A stretch of 64,000 nucleotides of DNA, from positions 5,148 to 69,147 of the forward strand of contig JAKQKX010000065.1 in assembly GCA_029560465.1 (NCBI GenBank). The letters run 5' to 3'. This stretch comes from Candidatus Omnitrophota bacterium. GTDB lineage: Bacteria; Omnitrophota; Gorgyraeia; Zapsychrales; JANLHA01. The translations under genes were made by a program, and so were the position numbers. Below the pieces are notes generated by a model. That model saw nothing but the letters and a program-made list of their open reading frames with translations, did not search any database and was not told where the DNA came from. Shown here one piece after another: positions 3,166 through 37,415 of this stretch. Position 1 is the first letter of the stretch. Each line of letters opens with the position of its first letter.

Positions 3166-3288
3166 GAAGCCCTCCTGGTCTTATCCTCACCAGATACCCG
3201 GGTGAAGGATTTTTTCTAAAACTCTCTCTGGGTTTCCATAAGGAGGCCTCTTGCCTCCCTCCTTTATTATTAATCACGGGCATGCAGG

Positions 3289-5113: not shown

Positions 5114-5158
5114 CAGTCGTCTAGAATTTGATAACGGCCCCGCACAACCGGGGCGGTA

Positions 5159-5734: not shown

Positions 5735-5738
5735 GATT

Positions 5739-6347: not shown

Positions 6348-6897
6348 CATACGCTCTCTGCACCGCGTTGCAAAAGGCTCTGGAACTGATGGTCGCAGCC
6401 GTGATCGCGTCCACACTCCCCCCGTCTTTTTTCACCGTCAGGCTAAAGGCACCCGGATTCTTATTTTGAAATTGCCGGGTGAAATCCGATTTTTTACGGT
6501 CGATTTTATCCCCCAAGCCCGGGGTTTCTTTATGGTCCAGGACCTCCACGTCATAAATCGTTCCGTCAGGAAGAAACCCCACCATAAGCTTTATTTCCCC
6601 CCCGAACCCCTGCTGCGTCCAGGATTCGACAGCGGTCCCCACCACTTCCCCGGCTTTCTTGACCGGATACAGCGTGATACACCGTTCATTCTGGCAGCGT
6701 TCCGTTTTATCGTCAAACGGGGAACTGTCGAATTCCGGCACGACATTCCTGATAGCCTCTATTTTTTTATTTAATTCCGCCCGGGCCTTGGGGCCTTTCG
6801 TGACTTCATAGACAAAACCCAAGGACGCGGAAGAAACAAACGTCGCCACGAAAAGGGTCGTCACCAGATTGAGGAATGTTGGCTCCTTCTTTTTCAT
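6319..6897 (-). CDS. rnfG: Rnf complex subunit G (FMN-binding)
   Basis: 192 aa with an N-terminal membrane anchor and an FMN-binding C-terminus ([15 protein letters not shown]). Confidence 0.8.
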
Positions 6898-6898
6898 C

Positions 6899-9234: not shown

Positions 9235-9290
9235 AATAAGTCCTCTATTCCAATGGCTTAACTTCCGACCCCACAAACCCGCGCCATGCG

Positions 9291-10148
9291 CTACGCTGAG
9301 CTTTTTACCCCCGCCGGTTCAGAGGCGGCTTTCAATTCGGGCAGGTTCATTTCAACGATCGCGTGTGTCGGGCACACGGGCGCGCATTTCCGGCAAAGCC
9401 GGCACTTTTCATGATCAATATACGCCAGGTTATTTTTCAACGTAATCGCCTCGAATGGGCAGGCCTTAACGCACAACCCGCAGCCGATACAGGCCACTGC
9501 GCAGGACTTTTTAGCGACCGGCCCTTTGTCCTGATTGATACAACTCACAAAAATACGCCTGTTCTTGGGCCCGCGCCTGCGCAACTCAATAATAAACCGG
9601 GGGCACGCTTTGACGCAGGCGCCGCAAGCCGTACATTTATCGTCGATCACCTCCGGAAGGCCGGTGTCCGGGTTCATGAATATCGCCTGAAATTTACAGG
9701 CTTTGACACAGTCGCCCAGGCCGAGGCAACCATAAGCGCATCCCGTATCCCCCCCGTACAAAGAAGCGGCAATGGAACAAGCCGGAGCGCTGTCATAAAG
9801 GCTCGTCTTGGCCCGGTGAGCATACGACCCCTGGCATCGGATCACCGCGATTAAGGGGTCCTTTTGAGACACCTTCTTCCCCAGGATATCAGCCACCGCG
9901 TCCATGCAGGCCTGCCCGCCGACCGGGCAATACAAATCAGTTAAATCCTCGGCCGCGACACAGGCTTCGGCGAAATTCCGGCACCCCGCATATCCGCATC
10001 CCCCGCAATTGGCCAGCGGCAACGCCGCTTCGACCTGGTCGACGCGGGGGTCTCCCTGCACTTTAAACTTCTGGGCCACGGCGTAAAGAATAACAGCAGA
10101 CAGAATACCCAGGACGCTTAATGTTACAATCGTAAAAACTATCGTCAT
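9291..10148 (-). CDS. rnfB: Rnf complex subunit B (polyferredoxin)
   Basis: N-terminal membrane helix, a CGGCGYAGCRNFAEAC cluster, and multiple CxxCxxCxxxCP ferredoxin motifs. Confidence 0.8.
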   Translation of the reverse strand: MTIVFTIVTLSVLGILSAVILYAVAQKFKVQGDPRVDQVEAALPLANCGGCGYAGCRNFAEACVAAEDLTDLYCPVGGQACMDAVADILGKKVSQKDPLIAVIRCQGSYAHRAKTSLYDSAPACSIAASLYGGDTGCAYGCLGLGDCVKACKFQAIFMNPDTGLPEVIDDKCTACGACVKACPRFIIELRRRGPKNRRIFVSCINQDKGPVAKKSCAVACIGCGLCVKACPFEAITLKNNLAYIDHEKCRLCRKCAPVCPTHAIVEMNLPELKAASEPAGVKSSA

Positions 10149-10151
10149 GTT

Positions 10152-10583
10152 TTATGGGTTATGCTTTTTATAAAGTTTCATTTGGAAAGATCCCTTCAAC
10201 CTGGGACTCAAAACGTGCAGAATGACATAATAGGGGACCAGCATCAGCAACGCCCCGCCTCCAACCAGATATTCCCGGGTTGTCATCCTTGAAAGGATCA
10301 GGAGCGAAAAAACAACAATACCTAAGGGTAACAGATACGCCAGAACCAGCGCTTTAAAACCTTTGGCCTGTTCCAGGACAATGTTGACTTCTTCCCCGAC
10401 CGTAAAATCTTCCTGATGGTCGGAGAAAACGAGAATTTGATGTTGTGTTTCCGCCGCCCCGCAATGTTGTCTGGACTCGCATGAGCCGCAGGCCGATGTC
10501 CTCATAAGCTCCACAAAAACATCCCGGCCCTTAAGCTCTTTCACAACGCCCTGGTGCTCAACATTACGACTGGTGTGCATCAT
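10152..10583 (-). CDS. RseC/MucC-family (SoxR-reducing system) membrane protein preceding rnf
   Basis: 143 aa with an N-terminal Cys-containing soluble part (ACGSCESRQHCG) and two C-terminal transmembrane helices, positioned as the first gene of the rnf operon. Confidence 0.6.
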   Translation of the reverse strand: MMHTSRNVEHQGVVKELKGRDVFVELMRTSACGSCESRQHCGAAETQHQILVFSDHQEDFTVGEEVNIVLEQAKGFKALVLAYLLPLGIVVFSLLILSRMTTREYLVGGGALLMLVPYYVILHVLSPRLKGSFQMKLYKKHNP

Positions 10584-10761
10584 ATGTTAATCCGCCGCAT
10601 CAACTAAATGTTTTTACTATATCTTTACCCCTATATCTTGTCAAGCGGCATTTAGGCCTTCTTAAGACGAAAAAGGCGTCTGCGCCTGTTTCCGGGGATA
10701 AGCTTCGCAGGCGAGTCACCCGGAAGGAGGAGCCCTCTTCTTTTTAAAATTACTTTTACTT

Positions 10762-11154
10762 TTATTTTGGGGAACGATTACGCCGGGAAGAGGTTCCCGC
10801 CACACCGGCCGTCCGTGGCAATTTTTTGCGGGAAGTTTGCTTGTAATCAAAAAACTTGATAGCAATAAGGAAAAATGCGCCGGTGACCTTTTTCTCCACG
10901 CGGACCACTTTACCATATCCGTTAAAAATATCCAGGATACCCGACATAACCACGTTCATTTCAATAATATCGTCCACGTGCAGGGGGATGTCTGAAAAGA
11001 AAGCAAGCCCCAAGAAACTCATATCATGAGTCGTGGACAAATGCCAGCGTTTATCCGCTTTTCGAAGCCGTGTTTTGACGACCCGGTATTGAATACTCAG
11101 GATACGCTTCGTGCGTAAAGCTTTCCGCATTTCGCTGGTGGATTGCTTCACCAT
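10762..11154 (-). CDS. Hypothetical protein, possibly PilZ-domain (c-di-GMP binding)
   Basis: 130 aa with an Arg-rich N-terminus (RKALRTKRILS) and a D-x-S-x-x-G-like element (HDMSFLGLAF). The fold assignment is tentative. Confidence 0.3.
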   Translation of the reverse strand: MVKQSTSEMRKALRTKRILSIQYRVVKTRLRKADKRWHLSTTHDMSFLGLAFFSDIPLHVDDIIEMNVVMSGILDIFNGYGKVVRVEKKVTGAFFLIAIKFFDYKQTSRKKLPRTAGVAGTSSRRNRSPK

Positions 11155-11257
11155 ATTCCCTCTCTTATGTTCTTCCTTCCTTAAATAAGGATAAACTTTA
11201 AATCCTTATTCGTCAAGAAGTTACTCCTTATGTTCTTGTTCTTTCTTATGAATGGGG

Positions 11258-13219
11258 TTAAAAGGGCTGCCCTTTAAGAATAAAACGAATGTCTCCCGAA
11301 GGTTTTTTATCGGTCAGGAGAAACACATATAGCCGCCTGTCCTGCACACATTGTCCCGGCTGATCCTGCCGGCAATATGTCACGAAAACCTCTGCGTAAA
11401 GCGTGTCGGCAGGGAAGATCGTGTAAACATGGAAGATGGACGTTTCATCATAGATAGCATAGAGTCGCTGAAAATCTCCCTGAGTGGTCCACAACCTCAT
11501 ATAAGGTTTCCCCTCATAAGAAATCCGTGTCCCCCGGGGCAATTTTATGGACAGCGTCAAATCCTGAACATCGTTGGAAAAAGTTTTACGGGTTCTCAGG
11601 ATCGTCCCCTCAAAACCCTCTACCCCGGGCTGCCCGGCTAGGAACGTTTCAATCTCCCCCTGGAGAGGCAGGGTTTCAACCCGTTTGTTCTCCAAATCCA
11701 GGACGCGGATACTGTGGTTATGGGTGTCGGCGATGAACACGCGGTTTTTCATATAACTTAAACCGCCGGGCTCGTTGAACAGGGCTTTATGAAAAGGGCC
11801 GTCTTTGAACCCGGCGCGGCTATCCCCACTTACGGTGCTCAAGGTGTTGTCCGCCAGGGAAAGCATACGGATTTTATTATTATAAGTATCGGCGATGACC
11901 AAGGATTCTGGAGTCCGGCATATCCCCAACGGATGCTGCAAACGCGCCGTCTCCTGGGTGCCGTCATCATCGCCAAACGTGTGCAGCCCCTTCCCCACCA
12001 CCGTCTCCACCTGGGCCCCCAAAAGCAATCCAACGCGCCTGACGGCGCTGACTTCACTGTCAAGGACGTACAGGGTATTTTCAACCGATACGATCCCCGA
12101 CGGCTGCGCGAAAGCGCTTCTGATCAGCGGGCCATCGATCAAATTCTCGACACCTGATCCGGCACACACCTTGATATCCCCGCTTTCAAGGTCCAGGACC
12201 CAAATCTGATGCGCGCCTGTCATCGCGATATAAAGCTGATCATGGATCAACGTCAAGTCCGTCGGATAATTTAAATCAACGGAGGCCCCAGCCCCCTTTG
12301 GAAAACGCGCCGTGTTTTTCCGGCCTGTTCCCGCAACGGTCATGACCTTTCCTGATTTAAGGTCGACTTTCCGTATCGCGTGATTGCCGGCATCAGCGAC
12401 ATACAAAATGTCCCCCTGCCGTGCCATTCCCTGGGGATCATGAAAACAGGCCGCCCCAAACGCCCCATCCTGAAACCCGCGGGCTCCTGAACCAATGATC
12501 TCCTGAACATGTCCCTGCCAGTCTGTCACGAGGATCCGGTCATGGCCGGAGTCGGCGATAAACAGCCGTTCATCATCCGTGGCCAGCACCTTCCCCGGGA
12601 ACGCCAGACTCGTCATCGGCTCCTTCTTCCTTTCCAGCCGCAAGGCGACTGGCTGGGTCCGCAGGAAATACTGGTTATGATTAAGGCGGGTCGTCAACTC
12701 TTTATCAACAGCCGAAAAAATATCTTCCCCAATCTGCTTATGAATAATTTTGCCCTCAGGATCAATCAAAACAACCGTCGGCCAGGCGCGTATGTCATAA
12801 TCCCGCCATATCCGCATGCGGGCGTCGTTCACCACCGGATAATCCAGCCTGTAACGGATCACCGCTTCCGTGACATTTTTGGGGTGGCGCTGCACGGGGT
12901 ATTTCGGGGAATGAACGCCGATCATGACAAGTTCCCGGGGATATTTCTTTTGCAGGGCCTTTAATTCCTGGAAAAGATTGATGCAGTTAACGCTGGAATA
13001 TGTCCAGAAGTTGAGCAGCACAAACTTGCCTTTGAGCTCCGCCAGGGTGAGCGGAGATTCAGTGTTGAGCCAGTCGAGCCCGGATCTCAAAGCCGGGGCC
13101 TGCTTATGCTGCAAATATTCCACAATGCCGGCACAGGCTGGCCGCCCGCCGGGATTCAAAAGCCACAAGGCCGCCAGGCAAAAATAAAGAAAACGGGATG
13201 TTTGTTTCATGGTTTTCAA
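11258..13219 (-). CDS. Secreted thioredoxin-like (redoxin) domain protein fused to NHL-repeat beta-propeller
   Basis: 653 aa with a signal peptide and an N-terminal redoxin fold (FVLLNFWTYSSVNCI). Repeated NHL-like blades follow (LxxPxGIAxDxxGxLYVADxxNHxIRKV). Confidence 0.7.
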   Translation of the reverse strand: MKTMKQTSRFLYFCLAALWLLNPGGRPACAGIVEYLQHKQAPALRSGLDWLNTESPLTLAELKGKFVLLNFWTYSSVNCINLFQELKALQKKYPRELVMIGVHSPKYPVQRHPKNVTEAVIRYRLDYPVVNDARMRIWRDYDIRAWPTVVLIDPEGKIIHKQIGEDIFSAVDKELTTRLNHNQYFLRTQPVALRLERKKEPMTSLAFPGKVLATDDERLFIADSGHDRILVTDWQGHVQEIIGSGARGFQDGAFGAACFHDPQGMARQGDILYVADAGNHAIRKVDLKSGKVMTVAGTGRKNTARFPKGAGASVDLNYPTDLTLIHDQLYIAMTGAHQIWVLDLESGDIKVCAGSGVENLIDGPLIRSAFAQPSGIVSVENTLYVLDSEVSAVRRVGLLLGAQVETVVGKGLHTFGDDDGTQETARLQHPLGICRTPESLVIADTYNNKIRMLSLADNTLSTVSGDSRAGFKDGPFHKALFNEPGGLSYMKNRVFIADTHNHSIRVLDLENKRVETLPLQGEIETFLAGQPGVEGFEGTILRTRKTFSNDVQDLTLSIKLPRGTRISYEGKPYMRLWTTQGDFQRLYAIYDETSIFHVYTIFPADTLYAEVFVTYCRQDQPGQCVQDRRLYVFLLTDKKPSGDIRFILKGQPF

Positions 13220-13268
13220 GCAGTGTCCGTCAGCAGAACCGCTTAATGGAATCGGTCGTGGTCCTAAA

Positions 13269-14657
13269 TCAATGAGGCCGTGTCATATCTTTGGGCCGGA
13301 TCAGGGCGTCAAATTCCGTTTCGGTGAGATACCCTGATTCGGCCGCCGCGACACGCAACGTTTTATCTTCTTTAAAAGCTTTCTGAACGATCTTGGCCGC
13401 TTTGTCATAGCCGATGTGCGGAGTCAGAGCGGTGACCAGCATGAGCGACTGTTCCAAGTGACGCTGAATGGTTTCAGCATTCAGCGCGATGCCTTGCACG
13501 CAATATTGGGTAAAATTCCGGACCGCGTCAGAGAGCAACTGGATGGATTGCAAAACGTTGAAAATGATGACCGGTTTACATACATTAAGCTGAAAATTCC
13601 CGCTGGCTCCGGCCAAGGCCACGGTCGTGTCATTCCCCACGACCTGCATACAGACCATGATCAAAGCCTCAGCCTGTGTGGGATTGACTTTCCCAGGCAT
13701 AATGGAACTTCCAGGCTCGTTGGCCGGCAATTGAAGTTCTCCGATCCCGCAACGCGGGCCGGAGCCAAGCCATCGGATGTCGTTGGCGATCTTGATCAGG
13801 GAAACCGCGATGACCTTTAAAATCCCGCTTAACTCAACCAGAGCGTCGTGGGCGGCGATCGCCTCAAATTTATTACGGGCGCTGACAAAAGGATACCCAG
13901 TCAACTCCGCCACCTGGGCAATCGCTTTTTCCGGGAATCCCGCCGGAGTGTTGATTCCGGTCCCAACGGCCGTCGCGCCCAACGCCACCTCATAAAGCCG
14001 GGGGAGCACCGCCTCAATTCTCTCCAGGCCGTTGATGATCTGCTGAGAGAACCCGCTAAATTCCTGTCCCAGCGTCAACGGAGTGGCGTCCATCAGGTGC
14101 GTGCGCCCGATCTTAACCACGTCCTCCCATTCCTCCGACTTCCGCGCCAATTGGTCCCCCATCCCCTGCAGTGCCGGGATCAGCGATTCCTGAAGCATGG
14201 TCACGGCGGCGATATGCATGGCCGTCGGAAAAACATCGTTAGAGGACTGGGACATGTTCACATGGTCGTTGGGATGCACGGGGTGTTTACTACCCAGGAC
14301 CCCCCCGGCCATTTCAATCGCCCGGTTGGCGATGACTTCATTCACGTTCATGTTGGTATGGGTGCCGCTCCCTGTCTGCCAGATTTTAAGAGGAAAATGA
14401 TCCAGGAAGAAACCGTCGATCACTTCCTCGGCTGCTTGAACAATATATTCGCAGGTTTTTGCGTCAAGCCTGCCACAGGCGGCGTTGGCCAGGGCACAGG
14501 CTTTTTTAACAATCGCCAGGGCCCGGATCATTTCCAGCGGCATGGCTTCGCCGCCAATGTCGAAATTCGTGGCTGAACGCGCGGTCTGGGCTCCGTAAAA
14601 CACATTCGCCGGCACAGGGATTTCGCCCAGGCTGTCTGATTCCATTCTGTAATCCAT
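13269..14657 (-). CDS. fumC: Class II fumarate hydratase
   Basis: 462 aa with the fumarate lyase signature [16 protein letters not shown]. The TQ variant indicates fumarase rather than aspartase. Confidence 0.85.
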
Positions 14658-29924: not shown

Positions 29925-31352
29925 CTAGAAACTGTACGGGAAACGGACTTCAAATGTCATGTCAGGCGCATCGCTTGTAAGCCCCAGGCTCACGGCAAAA
30001 TCCATGGAAGCCCGCTCGCTGAGCGCCCAATTGAAGCCGGTTTTGAAGTTAGCCGCGTTCTGAAAAGAACCCGGCACATCACGCCCGTCTCTATTCATCT
30101 TGCCGGTGACGGTGTGGTCAAAGGAAAAATTAATCGCCGTCTGATAACTCAAAGCGATAGCGGTGCCTAAACTGTAGCCGATGGAATCCCCGGGGTCAAC
30201 CTCCCCAAAATTCTCGATATCACCGCGAGGGATATTGTATGTGTAATTGATGCTCCCGAAAACAACGGCCGGATCGCTGGCCTTGGCTCCGACCAGAGCG
30301 CCGCTAACGGCCCAGTGTCCGGTTCCCATAGCGATATCCGTATTATACGGCTCATCCCCCGTGTTGGATTTAACGGACAGGCTCGCCACAAGATCAGGCA
30401 TTATCCCATGCTCCCAGCCGATCTGACGGCTGATCGAAACCTGAATGTCACCCAACCCGCCTTTCGAATCCGTCTGGTCATAAGTTGTGCTGTCGGTATT
30501 GGTGACGCGGTCATATTCAAACCGGCCCGGGACACGAACTTCAGTCTGAAGGTTATGTAAAAGGCCGTATTTAAACGCCCAGGTATGAATAAACACGTCC
30601 CGTTTTACTTTTTCCGTGTTGATGTCCCCAATGACTAAAATAGGAAGTATGCTGAACCCGTTAATATTAATCCGGTTCGAAGAAAAATGGGCGTAGGTCA
30701 AACTCGGTTCAAACTGCAGTTTCCCTTTCGGAAGCAGGATACTGCCTTTCTGAACGAGCGTCCGTTCAATCGAATCGACCCGCTCTAGAGTCCCTCCCTC
30801 CGGCTCGGGGGCTTGGGATGGGGCCGCTTGTTTTTTAGGGGTTTTTTCGGCATGGGATGCCGAAGCCAAAAGCATAACGTCTTGAGAAGGGGCTCTCATC
30901 ATCCCGACGCCGGGCACTTGGACATCCAATTCGATTCCTTGCCCGGCAATAAAACGGTCTAGTTCCTTATCGGTTAAACCAACATTATATTGCTCAACCG
31001 TTTCCCGGACTGTCCGGCGGACCGCCTCACGGATTGATTCTTCGCCTGGCAGGATGGCTTCCACCTGCCGCGGTAGGCCTTGCGGGTTAACGCCCCCATC
31101 AGCCTCCCCCCCTGCCTTCCGGGCCAGATACGAGTCCACTTCTCTACGGATCTCTTCCGCGATAAAAGGTTCCATCTGGGCCAGCACTTCCGCACGGATA
31201 TCCTTCCTGATCTCCTGACGGATTTGCGCGGCAAGGCCGTCCATGTCCCTGGTGGCCTTGGAATAACGGGAACGCAAAGCCCCAAGGGCCAAGAGAAGGG
31301 ATATGGTTATAACTCCCATGATATAAGGGAAGGTTTTTTTAATCATAATCAT
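29925..31352 (-). CDS. Outer-membrane beta-barrel protein with N-terminal coiled coil (FapF-like secretion pore candidate)
   Basis: 475 aa. An N-terminal signal/anchor is followed by a heptad-like helical segment (AAQIRQEIRKDIRAEVLAQMEPFIAEEIRREVDSYLARK). A C-terminal domain of about 270 aa has alternating amphipathic strands and ends in an aromatic residue (FEVRFPYSF), as outer-membrane beta-barrels do. Confidence 0.5.
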   Translation of the reverse strand: MIMIKKTFPYIMGVITISLLLALGALRSRYSKATRDMDGLAAQIRQEIRKDIRAEVLAQMEPFIAEEIRREVDSYLARKAGGEADGGVNPQGLPRQVEAILPGEESIREAVRRTVRETVEQYNVGLTDKELDRFIAGQGIELDVQVPGVGMMRAPSQDVMLLASASHAEKTPKKQAAPSQAPEPEGGTLERVDSIERTLVQKGSILLPKGKLQFEPSLTYAHFSSNRININGFSILPILVIGDINTEKVKRDVFIHTWAFKYGLLHNLQTEVRVPGRFEYDRVTNTDSTTYDQTDSKGGLGDIQVSISRQIGWEHGIMPDLVASLSVKSNTGDEPYNTDIAMGTGHWAVSGALVGAKASDPAVVFGSINYTYNIPRGDIENFGEVDPGDSIGYSLGTAIALSYQTAINFSFDHTVTGKMNRDGRDVPGSFQNAANFKTGFNWALSERASMDFAVSLGLTSDAPDMTFEVRFPYSF

Positions 31353-31355
31353 GTA

Positions 31356-32039
31356 TTACCATTCATTAGTGAACACCGTTGTCCTGAGCTGAAGCGGGTT
31401 AACAAAACGTTTCAAGGACCGGTAGTCCGCCATGCGGATATCTTCATGTTCAATCTGCAAAGCATAATCATTTTTTATTTCGTGGTCCGGGTGTTCCACC
31501 ACGAAACCGATACCATTCGTCCACATCGATATAAATTTTTCATCTTTAATTGTCATATTCCCGACCGCCGGGTCAGCGATGAATACCCTGTCACCGAAAA
31601 CACCCTTAACGACAACAAAATGCCGGTAATTTTTAAACTTGATAGGCACCAGAACCGGTTTCCCAATGGACTTTAAATACTCAAAATCCATGCGGTATCC
31701 TGTCACTTTATAGCCACGGGACTGAGCGAACTTCTTCAAATCAAATAATGAAAATCCCTGCCGTGCCATCACCTTTTCTAAAGGAATCGTGTTCAGGAGG
31801 GAATTAATGATTTCGATTTCAGGGATCGGGTCATTCAAGTAATAATTAAACAAAGTGGCTAACCCGGCCGCGCCGCAGCTGTAGTCCCAGCCTTGTGTCA
31901 CGACATTCTCCTGCCGGATCTCTTTCAAACTCCTGACTTTCTTGTTAAAACCCATCCCCCCAACCGAGAAGCTGGCCGCATTCGCAGGAAGCGCGAGGGC
32001 GCATAAAAGGCAGACAGTGATAAAAAAGTTTTTAAACAT
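31356..32039 (-). CDS. Periplasmic C39-family cysteine peptidase (FapD-like), stand-alone with Sec signal peptide
   Basis: 227 aa with signal peptide MFKNFFITVCLLCALALPANA. The C39 catalytic Cys context is QGWDYSCGAAGLATLFNYY and the His/Asp context is NYRHFVVVKGVFGDRVFIADP. There is no ABC transporter fusion. Confidence 0.7.
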   Translation of the reverse strand: MFKNFFITVCLLCALALPANAASFSVGGMGFNKKVRSLKEIRQENVVTQGWDYSCGAAGLATLFNYYLNDPIPEIEIINSLLNTIPLEKVMARQGFSLFDLKKFAQSRGYKVTGYRMDFEYLKSIGKPVLVPIKFKNYRHFVVVKGVFGDRVFIADPAVGNMTIKDEKFISMWTNGIGFVVEHPDHEIKNDYALQIEHEDIRMADYRSLKRFVNPLQLRTTVFTNEW

Positions 32040-32094: not shown

Positions 32095-32553
32095 TTATGG
32101 CGCGATAATAAGATTATTGTTACTCATCACATTGCCGGCGATCGTTGAATTGATGATAACATTCAAATTGAGGCCGACTAAGACATTGCTGCCTGCCGCA
32201 TTGACATTGATGAGGCTATTGGCGAATTGCTGGGCATAATCCTGCAAATTAATGTAATTGATATCACCGGAACCCGTACTGAATATAGGACTCGATCCCC
32301 TATCCCCGCTAAAAAACAGCGTCGCATCCCCATTCGCCTCCAAAGTGAAATTCAGTTCCGGCGGCATAAATATTTTATCAAAATTTCCAAAAAAATCATT
32401 GAATCCGCTGAAATTAAACCCCTGCGCATAAATCTGATCTAATTCTTCATCAGACAAGAGGACTGCGGTTCCTGAGGCCACGGCCATGGAAACGGCGGTA
32501 TTCAAACACAAGAAAACAGCCGTTATAATCATAATCACACACTTTCGAACCAT
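32095..32553 (-). CDS. Small secreted N/G-rich repeat protein (FapB-like nucleator candidate)
   Basis: 152 aa with a signal peptide, then LSDEELDQIYAQG directly after the predicted cleavage site. The C-terminus has amyloid-like N-rich beta-repeats (NVNAAGSNVLVGLNLNVIINSTIAGNVMSNNN). Confidence 0.5.
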   Translation of the reverse strand: MVRKCVIMIITAVFLCLNTAVSMAVASGTAVLLSDEELDQIYAQGFNFSGFNDFFGNFDKIFMPPELNFTLEANGDATLFFSGDRGSSPIFSTGSGDINYINLQDYAQQFANSLINVNAAGSNVLVGLNLNVIINSTIAGNVMSNNNLIIAP

Positions 32554-32643
32554 CCCTGGGGCCTCTTTCTTTTAATAGTACTTTATTAAGAATTTTTAGG
32601 GGGGAGGATCGCCTCCCCCCTAAAAAATCCGATTTAACTCTTA

Positions 32644-35112
32644 TTAAAGACCATTCGTCACGTTTGCGATGTTGGACTGATTGATCGTACCGTTCAAACT
32701 GCCTGTTGCGCTCATGATATTCGTTTGAACCGCTACGCCCGACCCAACCGCATTCACAGTACTCAACGCAGTGATTCCGGCTTGTGAAGAACCGGATAAT
32801 ATCAACACGTTTTTCTCGCTCTTGTTTTGACGATTTGTGTTGTTGACTTCAGCTATGTTTGTGATGGTCTGACTTGCGTCATTCGTTGTAGCTTCAATGT
32901 CGTTCGTTTCAACTGAATTCTCGGTCTTCTCATACTGATCTTTGAATTCATCATTGTTACGAGCTTGTGCACCTTCAGAAGCCTGCTCTTCGTCATGGTT
33001 AAACGTCGTTGATAAGGCTCCTTCAGCTTCGAAGTTGCTCGTTGTTGACGCACTGCTCTCATCAGAATGATCAGTCGTGTCAATCGAGTCGGTCGAAGCA
33101 GCAACATCACGGGATGCTGATGTGGATAAAGCGTCAGAATCCGTGTACCCGATCGTCAAACTGTTAGAGGACTCCGAAGAATCCGCCTCAGAGGCTGAAG
33201 CAGAAGCCGCATCGTCATACGCTACGTTTAATGAACCGGAAGCGGTTGTTTCAGAAGAAGAAGCGGCTGACGCGGAGTCATTGTAAGTAGCATCCACGGA
33301 ATTAGAAGCCGTTGTTTCCGAAGAAGCGGCGGCTGACGCGGAATCATCATATGCCGCGTTTAAAGAACCGGAAGCTGTCGTGTCAGAAGAAGAAGCGGCT
33401 GACGCAGAATCATTGTAAGTGGCATCCACGGAATTAGAAGCCGTTGTTTCCGAAGAAGCGGCGGCTGACGCGGAATCACTATAGGTTGCGTCTAATGAAC
33501 CGGAAGCAGTGGTGTTTTCAGAAGCGGCCACAGATTGCTGAGCTTCACCAGAAGCTGCCGCATTGGCAGAATCAGATGCAGAGTCATTATAAGTCGCATT
33601 CAGATTTCCACCTTGAGTACTATTGGACTCTGCAGAGCTTGAGCTGGCAGCAGAATCATTGTAAGTCGCAGAAAGCGCGCCAGAGGCATCCGTGCCTTCA
33701 GAACTCGCTGCTGACGTTGATGCTGTGTTATCTTTGCTGTCATACGTATCACCGCGAGAAGCAACACCTTCAACCGTAGTGGTTGATGTTGCGCAATCTG
33801 CGCAAGTGTCTGTGGTCTGGGTATACGTCCCATCAAGCGCCTGGGCGCTTGTGGATGTTTCTCCATCCGTAGCCGATGAACTGCTTGAAGATTCCGACGC
33901 CGCATTATCAGAATATTGGGCATTGGCATCTAAAGTAGCGGATGTCGCGTCTTGAGCCGCAGCCTGCTCAGAGGCGCTGTCTGACGCGGAATAATCAGCT
34001 TCCAAGGAAGAGGCTGTCGCGCTGTCAGACTGTGAACTGCTTTCATACTGGGCGGCTTGGCTGGCGCTTGCTTCATAAGCGGCACTGTCAGAATAATCAG
34101 CCTCTGCACTTAACGTCGCATCAGTTGCTTCTTGCGATTGCGAAGCAGAACTATCAGAGGAAGCGGAATCCGCTGCAAATGTCGCGGAGGTCGCTTCTTC
34201 TGACTGGGCGGCTTCACTGTCAGAATAATTAACAGCTACGTCTAAGGACGCGCTGGTTGCTTCTTGTGATTGCGAAGCAGAACTATCAGAGGAAGCGGAA
34301 TCCGCTGCAAATGTCGCGGAGGTCGCTTCTTCTGACTGGGCGGCCGCACTGTCAGAATACTGAGCTTCAGCATCTAATGACGCAGACGTCGACTCGGCTG
34401 ATTCAGATTCAGACGTGTGAGCGGCTGACTGCTGAGCCTGCTGGTCATAATCAAACGTCGTGTCATTCGATGCGCTGAACTGCGCGTCGGCGCTGTCTGT
34501 TGCCGCGGCGTGATCTTCGCTCAAAGTTGAATCAGTGACTTTAGACGCTGTATCAGAAGTAGCAGAGGTCGATCCGGAAGCGGATGCGTCTAAGGTAGCC
34601 GATGTAGATTCGGAAGAGCTGCTCGCTGCCGAAGACTGCTCATTGTCATAAATTTGAGTATTGTCTTCTTTTTCCCACAGGTCAGAAGTTTTCACCGTGG
34701 TCTCTTTTGACCAAGCATTGACCTGATCCTGTTCCACGATATTCGTGGCCTTGGTGGACACGGAATAATCTTCGGAAGGATTCATGTTGACGACATTCGC
34801 GGCGTTGCTCTGGCTCGCCTCTACGTCAGCCTGATCTTCGGAGTTGCCGACGTTGGTCTGCACGGCAACCGCACTGTCAACGGTGTTGACAACACTCAAT
34901 CCCGTTAAATTTTCCTGTGCTCCACTTTCAGATTTGAGTTTATTTTCGCTGAAATAAACATCTTCCACCACATCACCTTCAGCAATCACAATCCATTCAC
35001 CAGCCGCGATTTCGTCCATCTCGGAATCGGAAAGCGCGATGCCTTCCGCATAACCGGCCACCGGATAAGCGGCGAACGCCACGGCTAGAATCCAAATAAG
35101 TAATTTTTTCAT
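32644..35112 (-). CDS. Large secreted repeat protein (FapC-like fibre subunit candidate) with giant low-complexity Ser/Thr/Ala/Asp linker
   Basis: 822 aa with a signal peptide, then LSDSEMDEIAAGE. An N-terminal N-rich repeat (LTGLSVVNTVDSAVAVQTNVGNSED) and a C-terminal repeat (ITALSTVNAVGSGVAVQTNIMSATGSLNGTINQSNIANVTNGL) match the motif of the 152 aa neighbour. The central region of about 600 aa is acidic Ser/Thr/Ala-rich tandem repeats. Confidence 0.6.
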   Translation of the reverse strand: MKKLLIWILAVAFAAYPVAGYAEGIALSDSEMDEIAAGEWIVIAEGDVVEDVYFSENKLKSESGAQENLTGLSVVNTVDSAVAVQTNVGNSEDQADVEASQSNAANVVNMNPSEDYSVSTKATNIVEQDQVNAWSKETTVKTSDLWEKEDNTQIYDNEQSSAASSSSESTSATLDASASGSTSATSDTASKVTDSTLSEDHAAATDSADAQFSASNDTTFDYDQQAQQSAAHTSESESAESTSASLDAEAQYSDSAAAQSEEATSATFAADSASSDSSASQSQEATSASLDVAVNYSDSEAAQSEEATSATFAADSASSDSSASQSQEATDATLSAEADYSDSAAYEASASQAAQYESSSQSDSATASSLEADYSASDSASEQAAAQDATSATLDANAQYSDNAASESSSSSSATDGETSTSAQALDGTYTQTTDTCADCATSTTTVEGVASRGDTYDSKDNTASTSAASSEGTDASGALSATYNDSAASSSSAESNSTQGGNLNATYNDSASDSANAAASGEAQQSVAASENTTASGSLDATYSDSASAAASSETTASNSVDATYNDSASAASSSDTTASGSLNAAYDDSASAAASSETTASNSVDATYNDSASAASSSETTASGSLNVAYDDAASASASEADSSESSNSLTIGYTDSDALSTSASRDVAASTDSIDTTDHSDESSASTTSNFEAEGALSTTFNHDEEQASEGAQARNNDEFKDQYEKTENSVETNDIEATTNDASQTITNIAEVNNTNRQNKSEKNVLILSGSSQAGITALSTVNAVGSGVAVQTNIMSATGSLNGTINQSNIANVTNGL
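33180..33560. repeat. Near-perfect tandem repeats of about 120 bp (two 60 bp subunits) inside the 822 aa gene
   Basis: The string cattgtaagtRgcatccacggaattagaagccgttgtttccgaagaagcggcggctgacgcggaatca recurs at about 33283 and 33403. It encodes (DATYNDSASAASSSETTASGSL)n. Confidence 0.7.
34136..34399. repeat. Two near-identical 132 bp (44 codon) tandem repeats inside the 822 aa gene, with diverged flanking copies
   Basis: gattgcgaagcagaactatcagaggaagcggaatccgctgcaaatgtcgcggaggtcgcttcttctgactgggcggc occurs at 34136 and again at 34268. The period of 132 is a multiple of 3. Confidence 0.75.
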
Positions 35113-35503: not shown

Positions 35504-36367
35504 TCAAGCGCGGGCCTCCATCTGGGCAAATCCTTGGCGGACTTTAGGTAAGGTTAAACGGCGGGACGTCTGATAAACACGGTAAAAACCCGGAGTCTTC
35601 CCATACGCCTTCTTAAACACCTTGCAAAAATAGCCCGGGTCTTCATACCCGCAGGTATAAGCGATCTCCGAAACTGACAAACTCTTATTCTGCAAAAGAC
35701 GGGAAGCGACTTGCAATCGGGTGTTATTAAGATACTGGGTAAAATTGGTTTTTAACACTTTCTTAATTAACCGGCTGAGATAATGATAGCTTAATCCGGT
35801 TTCTTCACAAAGATGCCGCAGGGAAAGATCCGGCTGGTGGTAATTTGTGCTTATATAACGGGCCACCTTCTCGACAACTTTCTGTTGATAACTCATTGTA
35901 TTATCTTTAAGATTCGAGAACAAGGTCAACTCTTCCCTGATATCCGACAAAAAATTTTCCAAAAGATTAACGATCGCTTTAATCTGTTGATGGCTGAGGC
36001 GGAAATGCGGGGTTTCCAAGACAAGCAAATAACCCACAATATCCTGACGGATTTCAATAGGGAGCAAAATCTTGGCAAACCCGGCCCGGCACTTGTCAAC
36101 CTGGATTTTCCCGGAACTGGTTGCTTTCTCTATAATAGAGGAAATCAGGGAATCACACACCTCAGTCCGGGACTGACAATCCGCGTGGAAATCCTGAATG
36201 TTCTCATGTTGAGGATTATGCAAAGCGGGAGAATAATTGCATTTAAAAATCCGGCCATCCAATGACCGGATTTCCAAGGTGGCGCCACAAAGGATACAGA
36301 TCACTTCTTGGATATGTTTGAACGCATGAGCTTCTTCAAAATACTCTAAGAGAGTATTAAAGTTCAT
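35504..36367 (-). CDS. AraC-family transcriptional regulator with N-terminal Cys-containing sensory domain
   Basis: 287 aa with a C-terminal AraC HTH (LSRLIKKVLKTNFTQYLNNTRLQVASRLL...YEDPGYFCKVFKKAYGKTPGFY). The N-terminus carries conserved Cys/His (ICILCGATLEIR...FKCNY). Confidence 0.85.
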   Translation of the reverse strand: MNFNTLLEYFEEAHAFKHIQEVICILCGATLEIRSLDGRIFKCNYSPALHNPQHENIQDFHADCQSRTEVCDSLISSIIEKATSSGKIQVDKCRAGFAKILLPIEIRQDIVGYLLVLETPHFRLSHQQIKAIVNLLENFLSDIREELTLFSNLKDNTMSYQQKVVEKVARYISTNYHQPDLSLRHLCEETGLSYHYLSRLIKKVLKTNFTQYLNNTRLQVASRLLQNKSLSVSEIAYTCGYEDPGYFCKVFKKAYGKTPGFYRVYQTSRRLTLPKVRQGFAQMEARA

Positions 36368-36521: not shown

Positions 36522-37415
36522 TTAATACTGGACATAAACTTTAACTTCTTTAAGGTGGGTTTCGGACTTTTGGGAGGAGCCCGACGATGCCAGGGATTTC
36601 TTATTAAGGCCGTCCTGGGCGTTCTGGAAATTCTGGCGGAGACAGGCCAGGGGCTGTTCGTACCCGAGGATAAACAACCCGTTCACAAGCTCCAGGTATT
36701 GAATAAAATATTGAATCGCGAAGAGGTAATTCCATTCCACGCCAACCGCCGAAGGCCCGGGCGCGAATGTTAAAGTTTTATGCCCCTGGATAATATACTC
36801 CTTGTCCCCAAGGATCGTCGGGTGAGAAAACCGCGAGCATTGCCGGAACATGGATTCGTACTCCTGGTGCAGTTCGCGGCTGACAATCCGCGCCATATCT
36901 TTGACCGTTCTCCCGGACCAGGTCACCAGGGCCCGGTCTGAAGTAACACGGTATTTCTTCTTAAAATCTTCAACATGCGAGAGGACCAGGGCTTTCTTTT
37001 CCAAAAATTCCTTCTGGCTTTTTTCCGGGGCGCGGCGCAGGGAGAGTTCTTCTTCAGCGATCGAACGCTTGAAAATGACCCACTTATATTCTACAAACCG
37101 CCTGGCTTTTTCATCCGCCTTATGGGGATCATAAATAATATACTGTACCGTAATCAGGTTTTCCAACAGGCTCCTGAGCAGGGCCGAAACATCCTGCCCA
37201 TACCCACGCTGGCATAAGACTTCAATCGCCGCGAAAGTTTTGACCGCCCGGGTCATGATAAAGAGAAAAATTCGCTTATGCGCCGGGAGGTCAAAAAGCT
37301 TAATATTTCTCCTGTTAATTTCCTGAAACAGCGTCCTCCCCAGGTCATGGGCCGCTTTTCCGGCCTGGGCCAGCTCAAGGCAAGAAATAAAGTTGTGATC
37401 CATATTCTTAGTCAT
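36522..37415 (-). CDS. Hypothetical helical protein, co-operonic with the SPL-family radical SAM gene
   Basis: 297 aa with no confident family assignment. Its start overlaps the stop of the upstream radical SAM gene (ATGA). Confidence 0.5.
   Translation of the reverse strand: MTKNMDHNFISCLELAQAGKAAHDLGRTLFQEINRRNIKLFDLPAHKRIFLFIMTRAVKTFAAIEVLCQRGYGQDVSALLRSLLENLITVQYIIYDPHKADEKARRFVEYKWVIFKRSIAEEELSLRRAPEKSQKEFLEKKALVLSHVEDFKKKYRVTSDRALVTWSGRTVKDMARIVSRELHQEYESMFRQCSRFSHPTILGDKEYIIQGHKTLTFAPGPSAVGVEWNYLFAIQYFIQYLELVNGLFILGYEQPLACLRQNFQNAQDGLNKKSLASSGSSQKSETHLKEVKVYVQY

What the first reader, a model, noticed from the sequence alone, without database searches (positions are those of the whole stretch)
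33180..34400. Near-identical in-frame tandem DNA repeats (120 bp and 132 bp units) building a giant low-complexity linker
The central 600 aa of the 822 aa protein is composed of Ser/Thr/Ala/Asp/Glu-rich units. At the DNA level it contains perfect or near-perfect tandem copies, with a 132 bp unit repeated at 34136/34268 and a 120 bp unit repeated at about 33283/33403. Long perfect direct repeats inside a surface-protein gene are classic substrates for RecA-dependent or slipped-strand copy-number change. They could give heritable length variation of an extracellular fibre subunit. Short-read assemblies may also have collapsed them, so the true gene may be longer.
Basis: seen in the sequence. Interest (0 to 1): 0.55.

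Follow-up and report, generated by a model that had tools for sequence, protein, structure and literature searches.

The report
Mirrored repeat arrays in secreted protein
The tandem repeats are real but imperfect, and they form two matched, mirror-placed arrays inside the acidic middle of a secreted protein from an uncultured Omnitrophota bacterium; the gene length did not change among close relatives.

Summary
The gene (32644-35112, minus strand, 822 aa) does contain in-frame tandem repeats, far beyond chance. The description needs correcting. Both arrays have a 132-bp period (two 66-bp sub-units). They are 83-88% identical, with perfect cores of 77 and 57 bp. The claimed 120-bp unit does not exist.

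The protein has a Sec signal, an invariant leader (LSDSEMDEIAAG) resembling a double-glycine leader, one ~55-aa conserved motif at each end, and a 656-aa acidic Ser/Ala/Thr/Asp spacer. It is followed by a small one-motif protein, a periplasmic C39 peptidase and a FapF-like outer-membrane barrel. This operon is conserved across Candidatus Omnitrophota. The substrates match no FapB, FapC, FapE or FilA model.

No length variation was found. Four assemblies of this population and two lineages at 86-92% identity all encode 822 aa. A 67%-identical orthologue lacks exactly one 22-aa unit in each array.

Unexpectedly, the spacer is mirror-symmetric. A CxxC sits at its exact midpoint, and the two arrays are equal in length and equidistant from it. 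This holds in five lineages with different unit sizes (p about 1e-5). I infer a folded-back two-armed stalk whose arms must stay equal. Repeat gain and loss would then be paired and rare, not a free variation switch.

The parts
32644..35112 (-). Gene for the 822-aa secreted repeat protein. It is the first structural gene of the operon.
   Evidence: ORF. No Pfam or NCBIfam family. The exact protein occurs on three JGI metagenome contigs. Orthologues occur in 13 Omnitrophota MAG loci.
35041..35112 (-). Predicted Sec signal peptide (about residues 1-24, MKKLLIWILAVAFAAYPVAGYAEG).
   Evidence: Read from the translation. It is conserved in orthologues. Cleavage is inferred.
34993..35034 (-). Invariant leader-like motif LSDSEMDEIAAGEW (residues 27-40). 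It is the candidate recognition and cleavage site for the adjacent C39 peptidase.
   Evidence: It is the most conserved stretch of the family. The pattern L-[ST]-D-x-[EQ]-[ML]-[DE]-x-[IV]-x-A-G-[ED]-W occurs in 64 of 96 family proteins. The N-terminal 43 aa weakly match Pfam DUF6160 (E 0.012), the family that Acinetobacter FilA matches (3.9e-9).
34786..34947 (-). N-terminal copy of the ~55-aa conserved repeat motif (residues 56-109; ...GLSVVNTVDSAVAVQTN...QSNAANVVN).
   Evidence: An HMM built only from the 27 repeats of P0004 and P0005 hits here with E 6e-11. It is 47% identical to the C-terminal copy.
32818..34785 (-). 656-residue acidic Ser/Ala/Thr/Asp/Glu-rich spacer (residues 110-765), made of about 20 degenerate 22-aa units.
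   Evidence: Composition and unit register. AF2 pLDDT is below 50 over most of it. Between species there are 143 synonymous against 66 amino-acid-changing codon differences, so it is under purifying selection.
34082..34384 (-). Array A: 132-bp (44-codon, 2 x 22) tandem repeat, 2.3 copies, 83% matches. The perfect 77-bp core lies at 34136-34212 and 34268-34344. It covers residues 243-344.
33793..33804 (-). CxxC (C437-A-D-C440), the only cysteines in the protein, at the exact midpoint of the spacer.
   Evidence: The offset from the midpoint is 1-4 residues in 10 of 11 family members that carry such a motif, for spacers from 138 to 655 aa.
33211..33515 (-). Array B: 132-bp tandem repeat, 2.3 copies, 88% matches. 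The perfect 57-bp core lies at 33290-33346 and 33422-33478. It covers residues 533-634, the mirror image of array A about the CxxC.
32653..32817 (-). C-terminal copy of the conserved repeat motif (residues 766-820; ...ALSTVNAVGSGVAVQTN...QSNIANVTN).
   Evidence: HMM hit with E 1.4e-10. BLASTP against the N-terminal copy gives 8e-08.
32593..32626 (-). GC-rich stem-loop just after the stop codon, between the big gene and the downstream genes.
   Evidence: Folding energy -32 kcal/mol, z = -5. It appears in the terminator-like scan. A strong hairpin sits at the same position in L004, L006, L007, L009, L010, L013, L018 and L020, with different sequences.
32095..32553 (-). Small secreted protein (152 aa; the JGI gene call gives 145 aa). 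It has a signal peptide, LSDEELDQIYAQG, and a C-terminal ...LINVNAAGSNVLVGLNLNV motif.
   Evidence: Orthologues carry LSD.ELDQI.AGG and one repeat-HMM hit at the C-terminus (L013 4e-6, L010 7e-4). The window protein itself gives no repeat-HMM hit at that threshold. No family hit.
31356..32039 (-). Periplasmic C39 cysteine peptidase of the FapD/FilB type, with its own signal peptide. The Gln/Cys/His/Asp catalytic set is intact.
   Evidence: Pfam Peptidase_C39 3.6e-22. NCBIfam FilB 5e-41 and FapD 1.3e-33, both below the curated cut-offs. Catalytic residues were read from the translation (TQGWDYSCG, YRHFVVV, IADP).
29925..31352 (-). FapF-like outer-membrane beta-barrel transporter with a charged N-terminal region whose coiled-coil character is inferred from the sequence.
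   Evidence: NCBIfam FapF 5e-44 and FilC 1.6e-16. PDB FapF 5o65/5o67 at 2e-32 over residues 199-475. Pfam Phenol_MetA_deg. NCBI names the cluster 'transporter [Candidatus Omnitrophota bacterium]'.
35504..36367 (-). AraC-family regulator directly upstream. It is a neighbour in every orthologous locus, usually upstream but downstream of the barrel gene in L009, L010 and L011.
   Evidence: Pfam HTH_18 and HTH_AraC. Synteny.

Best explanation
The flagged DNA encodes the two youngest blocks of repeats in the 656-residue acidic spacer of a secreted protein.

Shown:
- The repeats are in-frame imperfect duplications of a 22-codon unit, organised as 44-codon units.
- Each long orthologue has its own unit size, so the spacer grew by lineage-specific tandem duplication.
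- The copies are kept similar by intragenic gene conversion.
- The spacer lies between two copies of a ~55-aa conserved motif. That motif occurs 12-18 times in related proteins.
- The gene belongs to an operon conserved in Omnitrophota: AraC regulator, this protein, a small one-motif protein, a periplasmic C39 peptidase and a FapF-like outer-membrane barrel.
- The spacer is mirror-symmetric about a central CxxC, and arrays A and B are equal in length and equidistant from that centre.

Inferred:
- The protein is exported by Sec.
- The C39 peptidase removes its leader after the LSDSEMDEIAAG motif, which resembles a double-glycine leader.
- The FapF-like barrel then secretes it, as in the Fap and Fil systems.
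- Outside the cell, the two terminal motifs come together, either stacking into a cross-beta core or anchoring the protein. The spacer folds back on itself as a two-armed antiparallel stalk with the CxxC at the tip.
- Because the arms must stay in register, a unit gained or lost in one array is tolerated only with a matching change in the other. That would explain why copy number is frozen among close relatives and why L006 lacks one unit in each arm.

The repeats are therefore a slow, paired evolutionary length-tuning device, not a rapid variation switch.
For: Repeat anatomy.

Conversion and unit-length indels.

No length change:
- The window and L001-L003 have the same length.
- L004 (90% aa identity) and L018 (86.5%) are both 822 aa without indels.
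- L009 and L011 are equal in length.

Lineage-specific periods, always as two arrays.

Mirror symmetry:
- The CxxC lies 1-4 aa from the midpoint in 10 of 11 proteins, with spacers of 138-655 aa.
- Array asymmetry is 1-3.5 aa in five lineages, Fisher p 9e-6. Array lengths are 102/102, 117/116, 118/114, 141/143 and 227/224 aa, r = 0.999.
- No DNA inverted repeat explains it.

Operon:
- Synteny holds in 13 Omnitrophota loci.
- The multi-repeat relatives P0004 and P0005 sit in the same kind of operon, next to exopolysaccharide export genes.

Terminal motif as a repeat unit. Its cores are modelled as beta-strand pairs with pLDDT 75-86 in P0005.

Leader.

Literature: FapD is periplasmic and essential for secretion, and its target is unknown (PMC5557850). 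FapC repeats form the fibril core while its linkers are variable (PMC3792158; PMC12392863).
Against: - Nothing here is experimental.
- AF2 gives no confident structure for the spacer. Mean pLDDT is 45 and residues 404-710 are all below 50. No arm-arm contacts could be read from the model, so the hairpin rests on symmetry alone.
- Foldseek found nothing.
- A spacer with net charge -85 is hard to zip together or pack densely without counter-ions.
- The terminal motif shows no sequence similarity to FapB, FapC, FapE or FilA in NCBIfam. The NCBIfam models do recognise the Aeromonas and Acinetobacter proteins. Nor does it match any PDB chain, and I expect FapC to be among them.
- The strict Fap repeat pattern is not met.
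- The lineages are related, so the five symmetry tests are not fully independent.
- L013 shows only one detectable array.
Confidence: 0.55

Rival explanations
1. The near-identical repeats are an active substrate for RecA-dependent or slipped-strand copy-number change, giving heritable length polymorphism of a surface fibre within populations, as at a contingency locus.
For: Perfect tracts of 77 and 57 bp at a 132-bp spacing are long enough for homologous recombination or slippage (general knowledge). Gene conversion has clearly acted. Spacer length differs 3.6-fold across the family.
Against: The window and three metagenome contigs are equal in length, and one contig carries SNPs. Two lineages at 86-92% aa identity are both exactly 822 aa with no indel. 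L009 and L011 are equal in length. The only unit indels appear at 67% identity, and they are paired. Units are multiples of 3, so no on/off switching is possible. Whole units are only 79-90% identical.
Confidence: 0.08
2. The repeat region is an assembly artefact. Short-read assemblers collapsed a longer array, so the true gene is longer.
For: Repeats are a known cause of collapse. All close relatives come from metagenome assemblies, and read depth could not be checked.
Against: The copies differ at 12-17% of positions. The perfect tracts are at most 77 bp, which is shorter than ordinary reads and the large k-mers used in assembly. Six independent assemblies from three lineages give 822 aa. 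L006 is recorded as a complete 3.36-Mb chromosome and has the same architecture minus two units. The exact mirror symmetry about the CxxC would not survive a collapse in one array.
Confidence: 0.04
3. The spacer is simply an intrinsically disordered, polyanionic 'fuzzy coat' linker, like the variable linkers of FapC. It has no folded-back structure. The symmetry is inherited from a symmetric short ancestor, or reflects some other constraint such as equal tethers on either side of a central binding or cross-linking site.
For: AF2 predicts disorder. The composition is typical of disordered acidic regions. FapC linkers of 30-260 aa are variable and are thought to coat the fibril (PMC12392863; PMC3792158). 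The short forms already have the CxxC at the midpoint.
Against: Inheritance alone does not explain why about 258 residues were added to each arm, keeping the CxxC within 1.5 aa of the midpoint. It also does not explain why arrays of equal length sit at mirrored positions in five lineages with different unit sizes, or why L006 lost one unit in each arm. The spacer is under purifying selection and has a fixed length among close lineages.
Confidence: 0.27
4. The protein is not a fibre subunit. It is a monomeric or oligomeric secreted or surface-tethered acidic protein, for example a cation-binding, anti-adhesive or adhesive stalk. It uses the terminal motifs as secretion or anchoring signals for the FapF-like barrel.
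For: It has only two terminal motifs, against 3 or more in FapC and 12-18 in P0004 and P0005. It is extremely negatively charged. It shows no detectable similarity to FapB or FapC. Published work found that FapD and FapF HMMs hit many non-Fap proteins, so these belong to larger families (PMC3792158).
Against: The same motif is tandemly repeated up to 18 times in relatives encoded in the same kind of operon, and it is modelled there as stacked beta-strand pairs. A small one-motif partner protein is co-encoded, as the minor subunit FapB is with FapC. A conserved hairpin after the gene suggests a highly expressed major subunit.
Confidence: 0.25

Closest known systems
Pseudomonas Fap functional-amyloid system (fapABCDEF), with FapC as the major subunit
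   Same: Both have a periplasmic C39 peptidase and a FapF-type outer-membrane barrel encoded after the substrate genes. In both, a large substrate has conserved repeat motifs separated by a spacer of highly variable length, and a smaller related partner protein is present. In the Fap system, size variation lies in the linkers (PMC3792158; PMC12392863).
   Different: The substrates here have no detectable similarity to FapB, FapC or FapE. There are two motifs instead of three. One 656-aa spacer compares with a maximum of about 260 aa in FapC. No FapA or FapE was found in the operon. The 2013 survey found Fap systems only in Proteobacteria, whereas this operon is in Omnitrophota (PMC3792158). 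The substrates carry a motif resembling a double-glycine leader, which Fap proteins were reported to lack (PMC5557850). The spacer is mirror-symmetric.
Acinetobacter Fil putative pilus system (FilA, FilB, FilC; Pfam DUF6160)
   Same: The C39 peptidase scores best against the FilB model (5e-41), and the barrel also hits FilC (1.6e-16). The N-terminal 43 aa of the 822-aa protein weakly match DUF6160 (E 0.012), the family that FilA matches. FilA also has an M-D-D-x-x-L...G-Q stretch directly after its signal peptide.
   Different: All scores are far below the curated cut-offs. There is no FilA match. FilD, FilE and FilF equivalents were not seen in the operon. FilA (289 aa) has no giant repeat spacer.
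Double-glycine leader peptides cleaved by C39 peptidase domains (class II bacteriocin and peptide exporters)
   Same: The motif L-S-x-x-E-[ML]-x-x-I-x-A-G fits the L-S-x-x-E-L-x-x-I-x-G-G consensus at every position but one. This consensus is from my own knowledge; quotes GG or GA cleavage. Orthologues of the small protein have ...AGG. A catalytically intact C39 peptidase is adjacent.
   Different: Here the leader sits behind a Sec signal peptide and the peptidase is a free periplasmic protein, not a cytoplasmic domain of an ABC exporter. Cleavage has not been tested.
Repeat-length-variable surface proteins and contingency loci (for example Gram-positive Ser-rich or SD-repeat adhesins and alpha-C-like proteins)
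   Same: In-frame tandem coding repeats lie in a Ser-rich region of a secreted protein. There is concerted evolution of the copies, and differences between species are one unit long.
   Different: No copy-number polymorphism was found among close relatives. The copies are only 79-90% identical. The arrays come as a mirrored, length-matched pair.
Antiparallel two-armed stalks with matched arm lengths (SMC, Rad50 and MukB coiled-coil arms). This is an analogy from my own knowledge.
   Same: Two segments on either side of a central tip element keep equal lengths over evolution. The central CxxC recalls the Rad50 zinc hook (CxxC) at the apex of its arms.
   Different: No coiled-coil signature was seen. 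The composition is Ser/Ala/Thr/Asp-rich, and the protein is extracellular. Only the symmetry was tested here, not any homology or structure.

Membership tests
Fap functional amyloid system | FapF-type outer-membrane beta-barrel transporter | tested here: met
   NCBIfam FapF at 5e-44 (150.7 bits) and PDB FapF 5o65 at 2e-32 over residues 199-475. This shows homology only. It is far below the equivalog cut-off of 700, but the genuine Aeromonas FapF also scores below that cut-off (371 bits).
Fap functional amyloid system | Periplasmic C39 peptidase FapD | tested here: met
   Pfam Peptidase_C39 at 3.6e-22. NCBIfam FapD at 1.3e-33 and FilB at 5e-41. It has its own signal peptide and an intact Gln/Cys/His/Asp set. 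It is a homologue, not an equivalog.
Fap functional amyloid system | Subunits with FapB/FapC repeats (G-x4-N-x3-G-x6-N; GN-x-G-N-x2-AG-x2-NQQ-x-N) | tested here: not met
   No hit to the NCBIfam FapB, FapC or FapE models at E up to 1, although those models detect the Aeromonas proteins. The repeat profile finds no FapC or CsgA chain in the PDB. The strict regular expression gives 0 matches. Only a relaxed [GA]-x4-N-x3-[GS]-x6-N form matches.
Fap functional amyloid system | FapA and FapE accessory genes in the operon | tested here: not met
   The operon has only four structural genes. The 152-aa protein hits no Fap model.
Fap functional amyloid system | Formation of amyloid fibrils | not testable with these tools
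   The only indication is indirect. The repeat cores of the relative P0005 are modelled as beta-strand pairs with pLDDT 75-86.
Acinetobacter Fil system | FilA, FilB and FilC at NCBIfam cut-offs | tested here: not met
   FilB scores 140.9 bits against a cut-off of 475. FilC scores 60.7 against 630. There is no FilA hit. The only link is a weak DUF6160 match of the first 43 aa (E 0.012).
Double-glycine leader substrates of C39 peptidases | Leader with the consensus L-S-x-x-E-L-x-x-I-x-G-G next to a catalytically intact C39 peptidase | tested here: inconclusive
   The motif is present and is the most conserved part of the family. Position -2 is Ala in the large protein, and the small-protein orthologues have GG. 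The consensus is recalled from my own knowledge, and cleavage is untested. The position behind a Sec signal is atypical.
Contingency or length-variable repeat locus | Copy-number polymorphism among closely related genomes | tested here: not met
   Six assemblies from three lineages at 86-100% identity are all 822 aa with no indel. L009 and L011 are equal in length.
Contingency or length-variable repeat locus | Long, near-identical tandem units | tested here: inconclusive
   There are 2.3 copies per array at 83-88% matches, with perfect cores of 77 and 57 bp. L010 has about 4 copies at 95-97%.
Folded-back two-armed stalk (structural class, by analogy) | Two arms of equal length about a central tip element, with arm lengths co-varying | tested here: met
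   The CxxC lies within 1-4 aa of the midpoint in 10 of 11 proteins. The arrays are mirrored to within 1-3.5 aa in five lineages, p 9e-6, and their lengths correlate at r 0.999. L006 shows a paired 22-aa loss.
Folded-back two-armed stalk (structural class, by analogy) | Physical contact between the two arms | not testable with these tools
   The AF2 models have low confidence, and no contact information was available.

The most novel reading that the evidence does not exclude
Omnitrophota carry a third, undescribed branch of the Fap/Fil type of secretion system, built on a periplasmic C39 peptidase and a FapF-like barrel. It has a new substrate family with three features.

(a) An invariant leader resembling a double-glycine leader sits behind the Sec signal. 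It would identify what FapD-type peptidases recognise, which is still an open question for Fap.

(b) The central 'linker' is in fact a folded-back, two-armed acidic stalk with a CxxC tip.

(c) The length of the stalk has evolved through compensated, mirror-image expansions of tandem repeats in the two arms. This would be a case of length co-evolution between two repeat arrays within one gene.
Probability: 0.35. Interest if true: 0.7.

Novelty: new variant of a known kind. Interest (0 to 1): 0.5.

Why it matters
- In-frame repeats in surface proteins are usually read as variation hot-spots. Here the comparative data show the opposite: copy number is frozen and changes only in matched pairs. That points to a structural rule of equal arms, which can be tested.
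- The operon extends Fap/Fil-type secretion to an uncultured PVC-group phylum, with substrates that no current family model recognises.
- Those substrates carry a clear candidate cleavage motif for the periplasmic C39 peptidase, whose target in the Pseudomonas Fap system is still unknown.
- For Omnitrophota, whose cell-surface biology is essentially unexplored, this is a conserved and probably abundant secreted product.

Tried and rejected
- Full-length homology search. The low-complexity centre swamped the word index and nothing scored. I switched to the N-terminal 160 aa and then to a profile.
- The 120-bp unit. Tested and rejected: 34% identity at that offset.
- Sequence search of the PDB with the whole protein, the repeat profile and the small protein. 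Only chance hits appeared (alanine racemase; 'QEALWALSNI' in designed armadillo proteins). No FapC or CsgA chain matched.
- AF2 of the 822-aa protein with a 36-sequence alignment and of the 12-repeat relative P0005. Mean pLDDT was 45-46. Only the repeat cores of P0005 reached 75-86.
- Foldseek of the P0005 model against the PDB. No match reached E of 0.001 or better, so I ignored the results.
- Metagenome scan.
- Apparent frameshift of L011 (534 aa). It lies beside a 177-N masked stretch, and the gene length equals that of L009 to within one base. I therefore did not treat it as a real frameshift or length variant.
- DNA inverted repeat as the cause of the mirror symmetry. Rejected: the arms found were at most 24 nt and 75-82% complementary.
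- A direct duplication of half the spacer as the cause. Rejected: the offsets fit mirror symmetry, not translational symmetry. In L010 the offsets are 193 and 193 aa in mirror, against 193 and 77 aa in translation.
- Literature searches for Omnitrophota plus amyloid, and for targets of periplasmic C39 peptidases. Nothing relevant was found.

Full report
THE OBSERVATION

The region lies inside one ORF on the minus strand (32644-35112, 822 aa). Tandem Repeats Finder reports two separate arrays, both with a period of 132 bp and both made of 66-bp sub-units. One is 34082-34384 (2.3 copies, 83% matches) and the other is 33211-33515 (2.3 copies, 88%). The gap-free repeat finder agrees.

The longest perfect direct repeats are 77 bp (34136/34268) and 57 bp (33290/33422), both at a lag of 132 bp. 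Its '120 bp unit at 33283/33403' is not: identity at that offset is 34%, which is background. Whole units are 79-90% identical, so 'perfect or near-perfect' is overstated.

The signal is far above chance even for this biased composition. In 500 codon shuffles of the centre, the longest exact repeat never exceeded 17 bp.

At the protein level, residues 161-700 are S 27%, A 23%, T 11.5%, D 10% and E 6%, with net charge -85. They consist of about 20 degenerate copies of one 22-30-aa unit carrying the motif T-A-S-x-S-L-D-A-x-Y-x-D-S-A. The two arrays are simply its youngest or most homogenised copies.

WHAT THE GENE IS

The protein has no Pfam or NCBIfam family. It starts with a Sec-type signal peptide.

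The three genes downstream on the same strand are:
- a 152-aa secreted protein with no family;
- a C39 cysteine peptidase with its own signal peptide (Pfam 3.6e-22; NCBIfam FilB 5e-41 and FapD 1.3e-33);
- an outer-membrane barrel (NCBIfam FapF 5e-44; PDB FapF 5o65 at 2e-32; FilC 1.6e-16).

An AraC regulator lies upstream.

The exact protein occurs on three JGI metagenome contigs. A profile of its N-terminal domain finds 13 loci among species-representative genomes. Most are labelled Candidatus Omnitrophota, and a few carry placeholder Planctomycetes names. NCBI names the barrel's cluster 'transporter [Candidatus Omnitrophota bacterium]'.

In every locus with enough flank, the set DUF5677, AraC, large protein, small protein, C39 and FapF-like barrel recurs. 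AraC lies downstream of the barrel gene in L009-L011, DUF5677 was not found in L007 or L012, and no small-protein match was found in L016.

An exhaustive HMMER search of 1.84 billion representatives finds only 75 relatives. Most are about 300-320 aa with two matched stretches. P0004 (1283 aa) has 18 matched stretches and P0005 (1000 aa) has 12. An HMM built only from the repeats of those two proteins hits the window protein exactly twice, at residues 56-109 and 766-820 (E about 1e-10). It hits small-protein orthologues once, at the C-terminus. The window's own 152-aa protein gives no hit at that threshold.

The architecture is therefore: signal peptide, leader, motif 1, 656-aa spacer, motif 2.

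P0004 and P0005 are adjacent in one genome. They are followed by a small protein, a C39 peptidase and a Phenol_MetA_deg barrel, and then by exopolysaccharide export genes. This supports a role in the extracellular matrix. In the AF2 model of P0005, each repeat core is a beta-strand pair with pLDDT 75-86, although the overall model is poor.

RELATION TO FAP AND FIL

NCBIfam holds models for FapB, FapC, FapE and FilA. They recognise the Aeromonas Fap proteins and Acinetobacter FilA that I fetched as controls. None of them hits the 822-aa or 152-aa protein at E up to 1. The strict Fap repeat pattern of Dueholm et al. (PMC3792158) is not met; only a relaxed form matches. The repeat profile finds no FapC or CsgA chain in the PDB.

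So the export machinery is homologous to FapD/FapF and FilB/FilC, but the substrates are a new family.

The design resembles FapC. In FapC, conserved repeats are separated by linkers of 30-260 aa, which account for its size variation and are thought to coat the fibril (PMC3792158; PMC12392863).

The 2013 survey found Fap systems only in Proteobacteria. It also noted that FapD and FapF HMMs hit larger families. My literature searches found nothing on Omnitrophota.

THE LEADER (OUTSIDE THE ORIGINAL FINDING BUT CENTRAL TO MECHANISM)

Directly after the signal peptide comes LSDSEMDEIAAGEW, the most conserved stretch of the whole family. The pattern L-[ST]-D-x-[EQ]-[ML]-[DE]-x-[IV]-x-A-G-[ED]-W occurs in 64 of 96 family proteins. 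The small protein has LSDEELDQIYAQG, and its orthologues have ...AGG.

This fits the double-glycine leader consensus L-S-x-x-E-L-x-x-I-x-G-G (my own knowledge) that C39 peptidases cleave after GG or GA.

The adjacent peptidase keeps the Gln, Cys, His and Asp catalytic residues (read).

Rouse et al. showed that FapD acts in the periplasm and is essential for secretion. They also noted that its target is unknown and that Fap proteins lack a canonical site (PMC5557850).

The first 43 aa of the window protein weakly match Pfam DUF6160 (E 0.012). Acinetobacter FilA matches this family at 3.9e-9. Aeromonas FapE has LADGELAHLRG after its signal peptide.

Cleavage here is an inference.

DOES THE REPEAT NUMBER VARY?

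- The window and the three metagenome contigs align without a gap. One contig has two synonymous SNPs.
- L004 (90% aa and 86.4% DNA identity) and L018 (86.5% aa identity) are both exactly 822 aa, with no indel anywhere.
- L009 and L011 (about 96% DNA identity outside the masked stretch) are equal in length. The apparent frameshift in L011 lies beside a 177-N masked stretch.
- Only L006 (67% aa identity; recorded as a complete 3.36-Mb chromosome) differs. It has 778 aa because exactly one 22-aa unit is missing in each array.

The copies do recombine:
- In array B, paralogues within a genome are more alike than orthologues, with 9 concerted sites against 2 orthologue-pattern sites.
- In array A, the 77-bp perfect tract is a local conversion.
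- L004 replaced the start of its third unit with a copy of its second.

Across the family the protein ranges from 304 to 1107 aa. Each long orthologue has its own in-frame unit size: 108, 132, 144, 162 or 24/48/210 bp. The short forms have no arrays.

The spacer evolves somewhat faster than the termini (88% against 93-100% identity), but it shows 143 synonymous against 66 replacement codon differences.

In conclusion, the spacer was built and remodelled by tandem duplication and conversion over long times. There is no sign of rapid variation and no sign of assembly collapse.

THE UNEXPECTED PART: MIRROR SYMMETRY

Every long orthologue with detectable arrays has two of them, both with the same period, except L013, where only one was found.

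I measured positions from the normalised ends of the two terminal motifs. Array A begins as far from motif 1 as array B ends from motif 2:
- window: 133 and 131 aa;
- L006: 128 and 122;
- L008: 113 and 111;
- L009: 121 and 126;
- L010: 193 and 193.

The arrays are also equal in length: 102/102, 86/89, 117/116, 118/114 and 141/143 aa. An independent self-similarity profile gives the same picture and adds L007 (227 and 224 aa).

I placed array B at random after array A in five lineages with different unit sizes. The combined probability of such symmetry is 9e-6, and the array lengths correlate at r = 0.999. The lineages are related, so this is an upper bound on the significance.

The only two cysteines of the protein (C437-A-D-C440) lie at the exact midpoint of the spacer (437.5). 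The same holds in L004, L018 and L006. It also holds in six of the seven short forms that carry a CxxC or CxxxC, whose spacers are about 138-145 aa. The offset is 1-4 residues in these ten of eleven proteins. If the short form is ancestral, this lineage added about 258 residues to each side of the CxxC.

Cys-less lineages have a Thr/Gly-rich stretch with a T-G-P-A-E motif within 15 residues of the midpoint.

Two simple causes are excluded:
- No DNA inverted repeat exists (at most 24 nt, 75-82% complementary).
- The offsets do not fit a direct duplication of half the spacer.

A and B units within a lineage are related, but they diverged before the split between the window lineage and L006.

INTERPRETATION

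The simplest reading is that the two arms of the spacer must remain equal. The spacer would then fold back as an antiparallel two-armed stalk with the CxxC (or TGPAE) element at the tip, bringing the two terminal motifs together at the base.

This explains three things:
- the fixed length among close lineages;
- the paired loss in L006;
- the matched arrays.

It predicts that a copy-number change in a single array is deleterious. That is the opposite of a free variation hot-spot.

The reading is inferred from symmetry only. AF2 gives no confident model (mean pLDDT 45) and Foldseek finds nothing. A net charge of -85 argues that any zipping would need counter-ions.

The main rivals are:
- a purely disordered acidic coat with an unexplained symmetry constraint;
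- a protein that is not a fibre subunit at all.

VERDICT

The thing itself is a new variant of a known kind: a Fap/Fil-type secretion operon with a novel substrate. The mirrored, length-matched pair of repeat arrays is unusual and testable.

Noticed in passing
window 34993-35034 (822-aa protein) and about 32415-32456 (152-aa protein, residues 33-46): Both putative substrates carry a motif resembling a double-glycine leader directly behind their Sec signal peptides (LSDSEMDEIAAGEW and LSDEELDQIYAQGF). It is the most conserved part of the family. It is probably the recognition site of the adjacent periplasmic C39 peptidase.
   Followed up: partly
window 33793-33804: The CxxC (TDTCADC) holds the only cysteines in the protein and sits at the exact midpoint of the spacer. 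It is conserved at the midpoint in long and short family members. It might form a disulphide turn or a metal-binding half-site.
   Followed up: partly
window 32593-32626: A strong GC-rich stem-loop (-32 kcal/mol, z = -5) follows the stop codon of the large gene without a clear U-run. A hairpin with a different sequence sits at the same place in eight related loci. It may be an intercistronic attenuator or an mRNA stabiliser that favours the major subunit.
   Followed up: partly
L007 13430-14221; L010 13052-13984; L013 12630-13673; L012 about 3001-4770: Orthologues of the small 152-aa protein also vary in length (151 to about 590 aa) through an inserted middle. In L007 this middle is Pro/Gly-rich with its own repeats (PNGPFEPNGVVAPGSP...).
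   Followed up: no
L012 993-2911 and L016 9003-10930: Some Omnitrophota carry two tandem short paralogues (about 300 aa) of the large protein instead of one long one.
   Followed up: no
L020 (GCA_030765235.1, JAVCCW010000029.1) 3962-13891: Two adjacent relatives with 18 and 12 copies of the terminal motif (1283 and 1000 aa) are followed by a small protein, a C39 peptidase and a Phenol_MetA_deg barrel. Wza, Wzz and Wzy exopolysaccharide genes come next. A gene of more than 4154 aa lies just upstream.
   Followed up: partly
window 36522-37415 and related loci: A DUF5677 gene is found next to the operon in most related loci (it was not found in L007 or L012). Its link to the system is unknown.
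   Followed up: no
L022 (Aeromonas caviae) 6599-7246 and L021 (Acinetobacter baumannii) 5646-6515: Aeromonas FapE (LADGELAHLRG) and Acinetobacter FilA (MDDAALSAATGQ) each have an L/M-x-D-x-x-L...G stretch right after the signal peptide. This suggests a common leader for FapD/FilB-type peptidases. Only one sequence of each was examined.
   Followed up: partly
L011 10700-10890: A run of 177 N (masked) lies inside the orthologous gene. It lies beside an apparent 1-bp frameshift and hides the first array there.
   Followed up: yes
L013 10001-12511: Only one tandem array (period 144 bp, residues 528-618) is detectable in this orthologue. The mirrored position in the other arm shows no array above threshold. 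This is the one exception to the paired-array rule.
   Followed up: no
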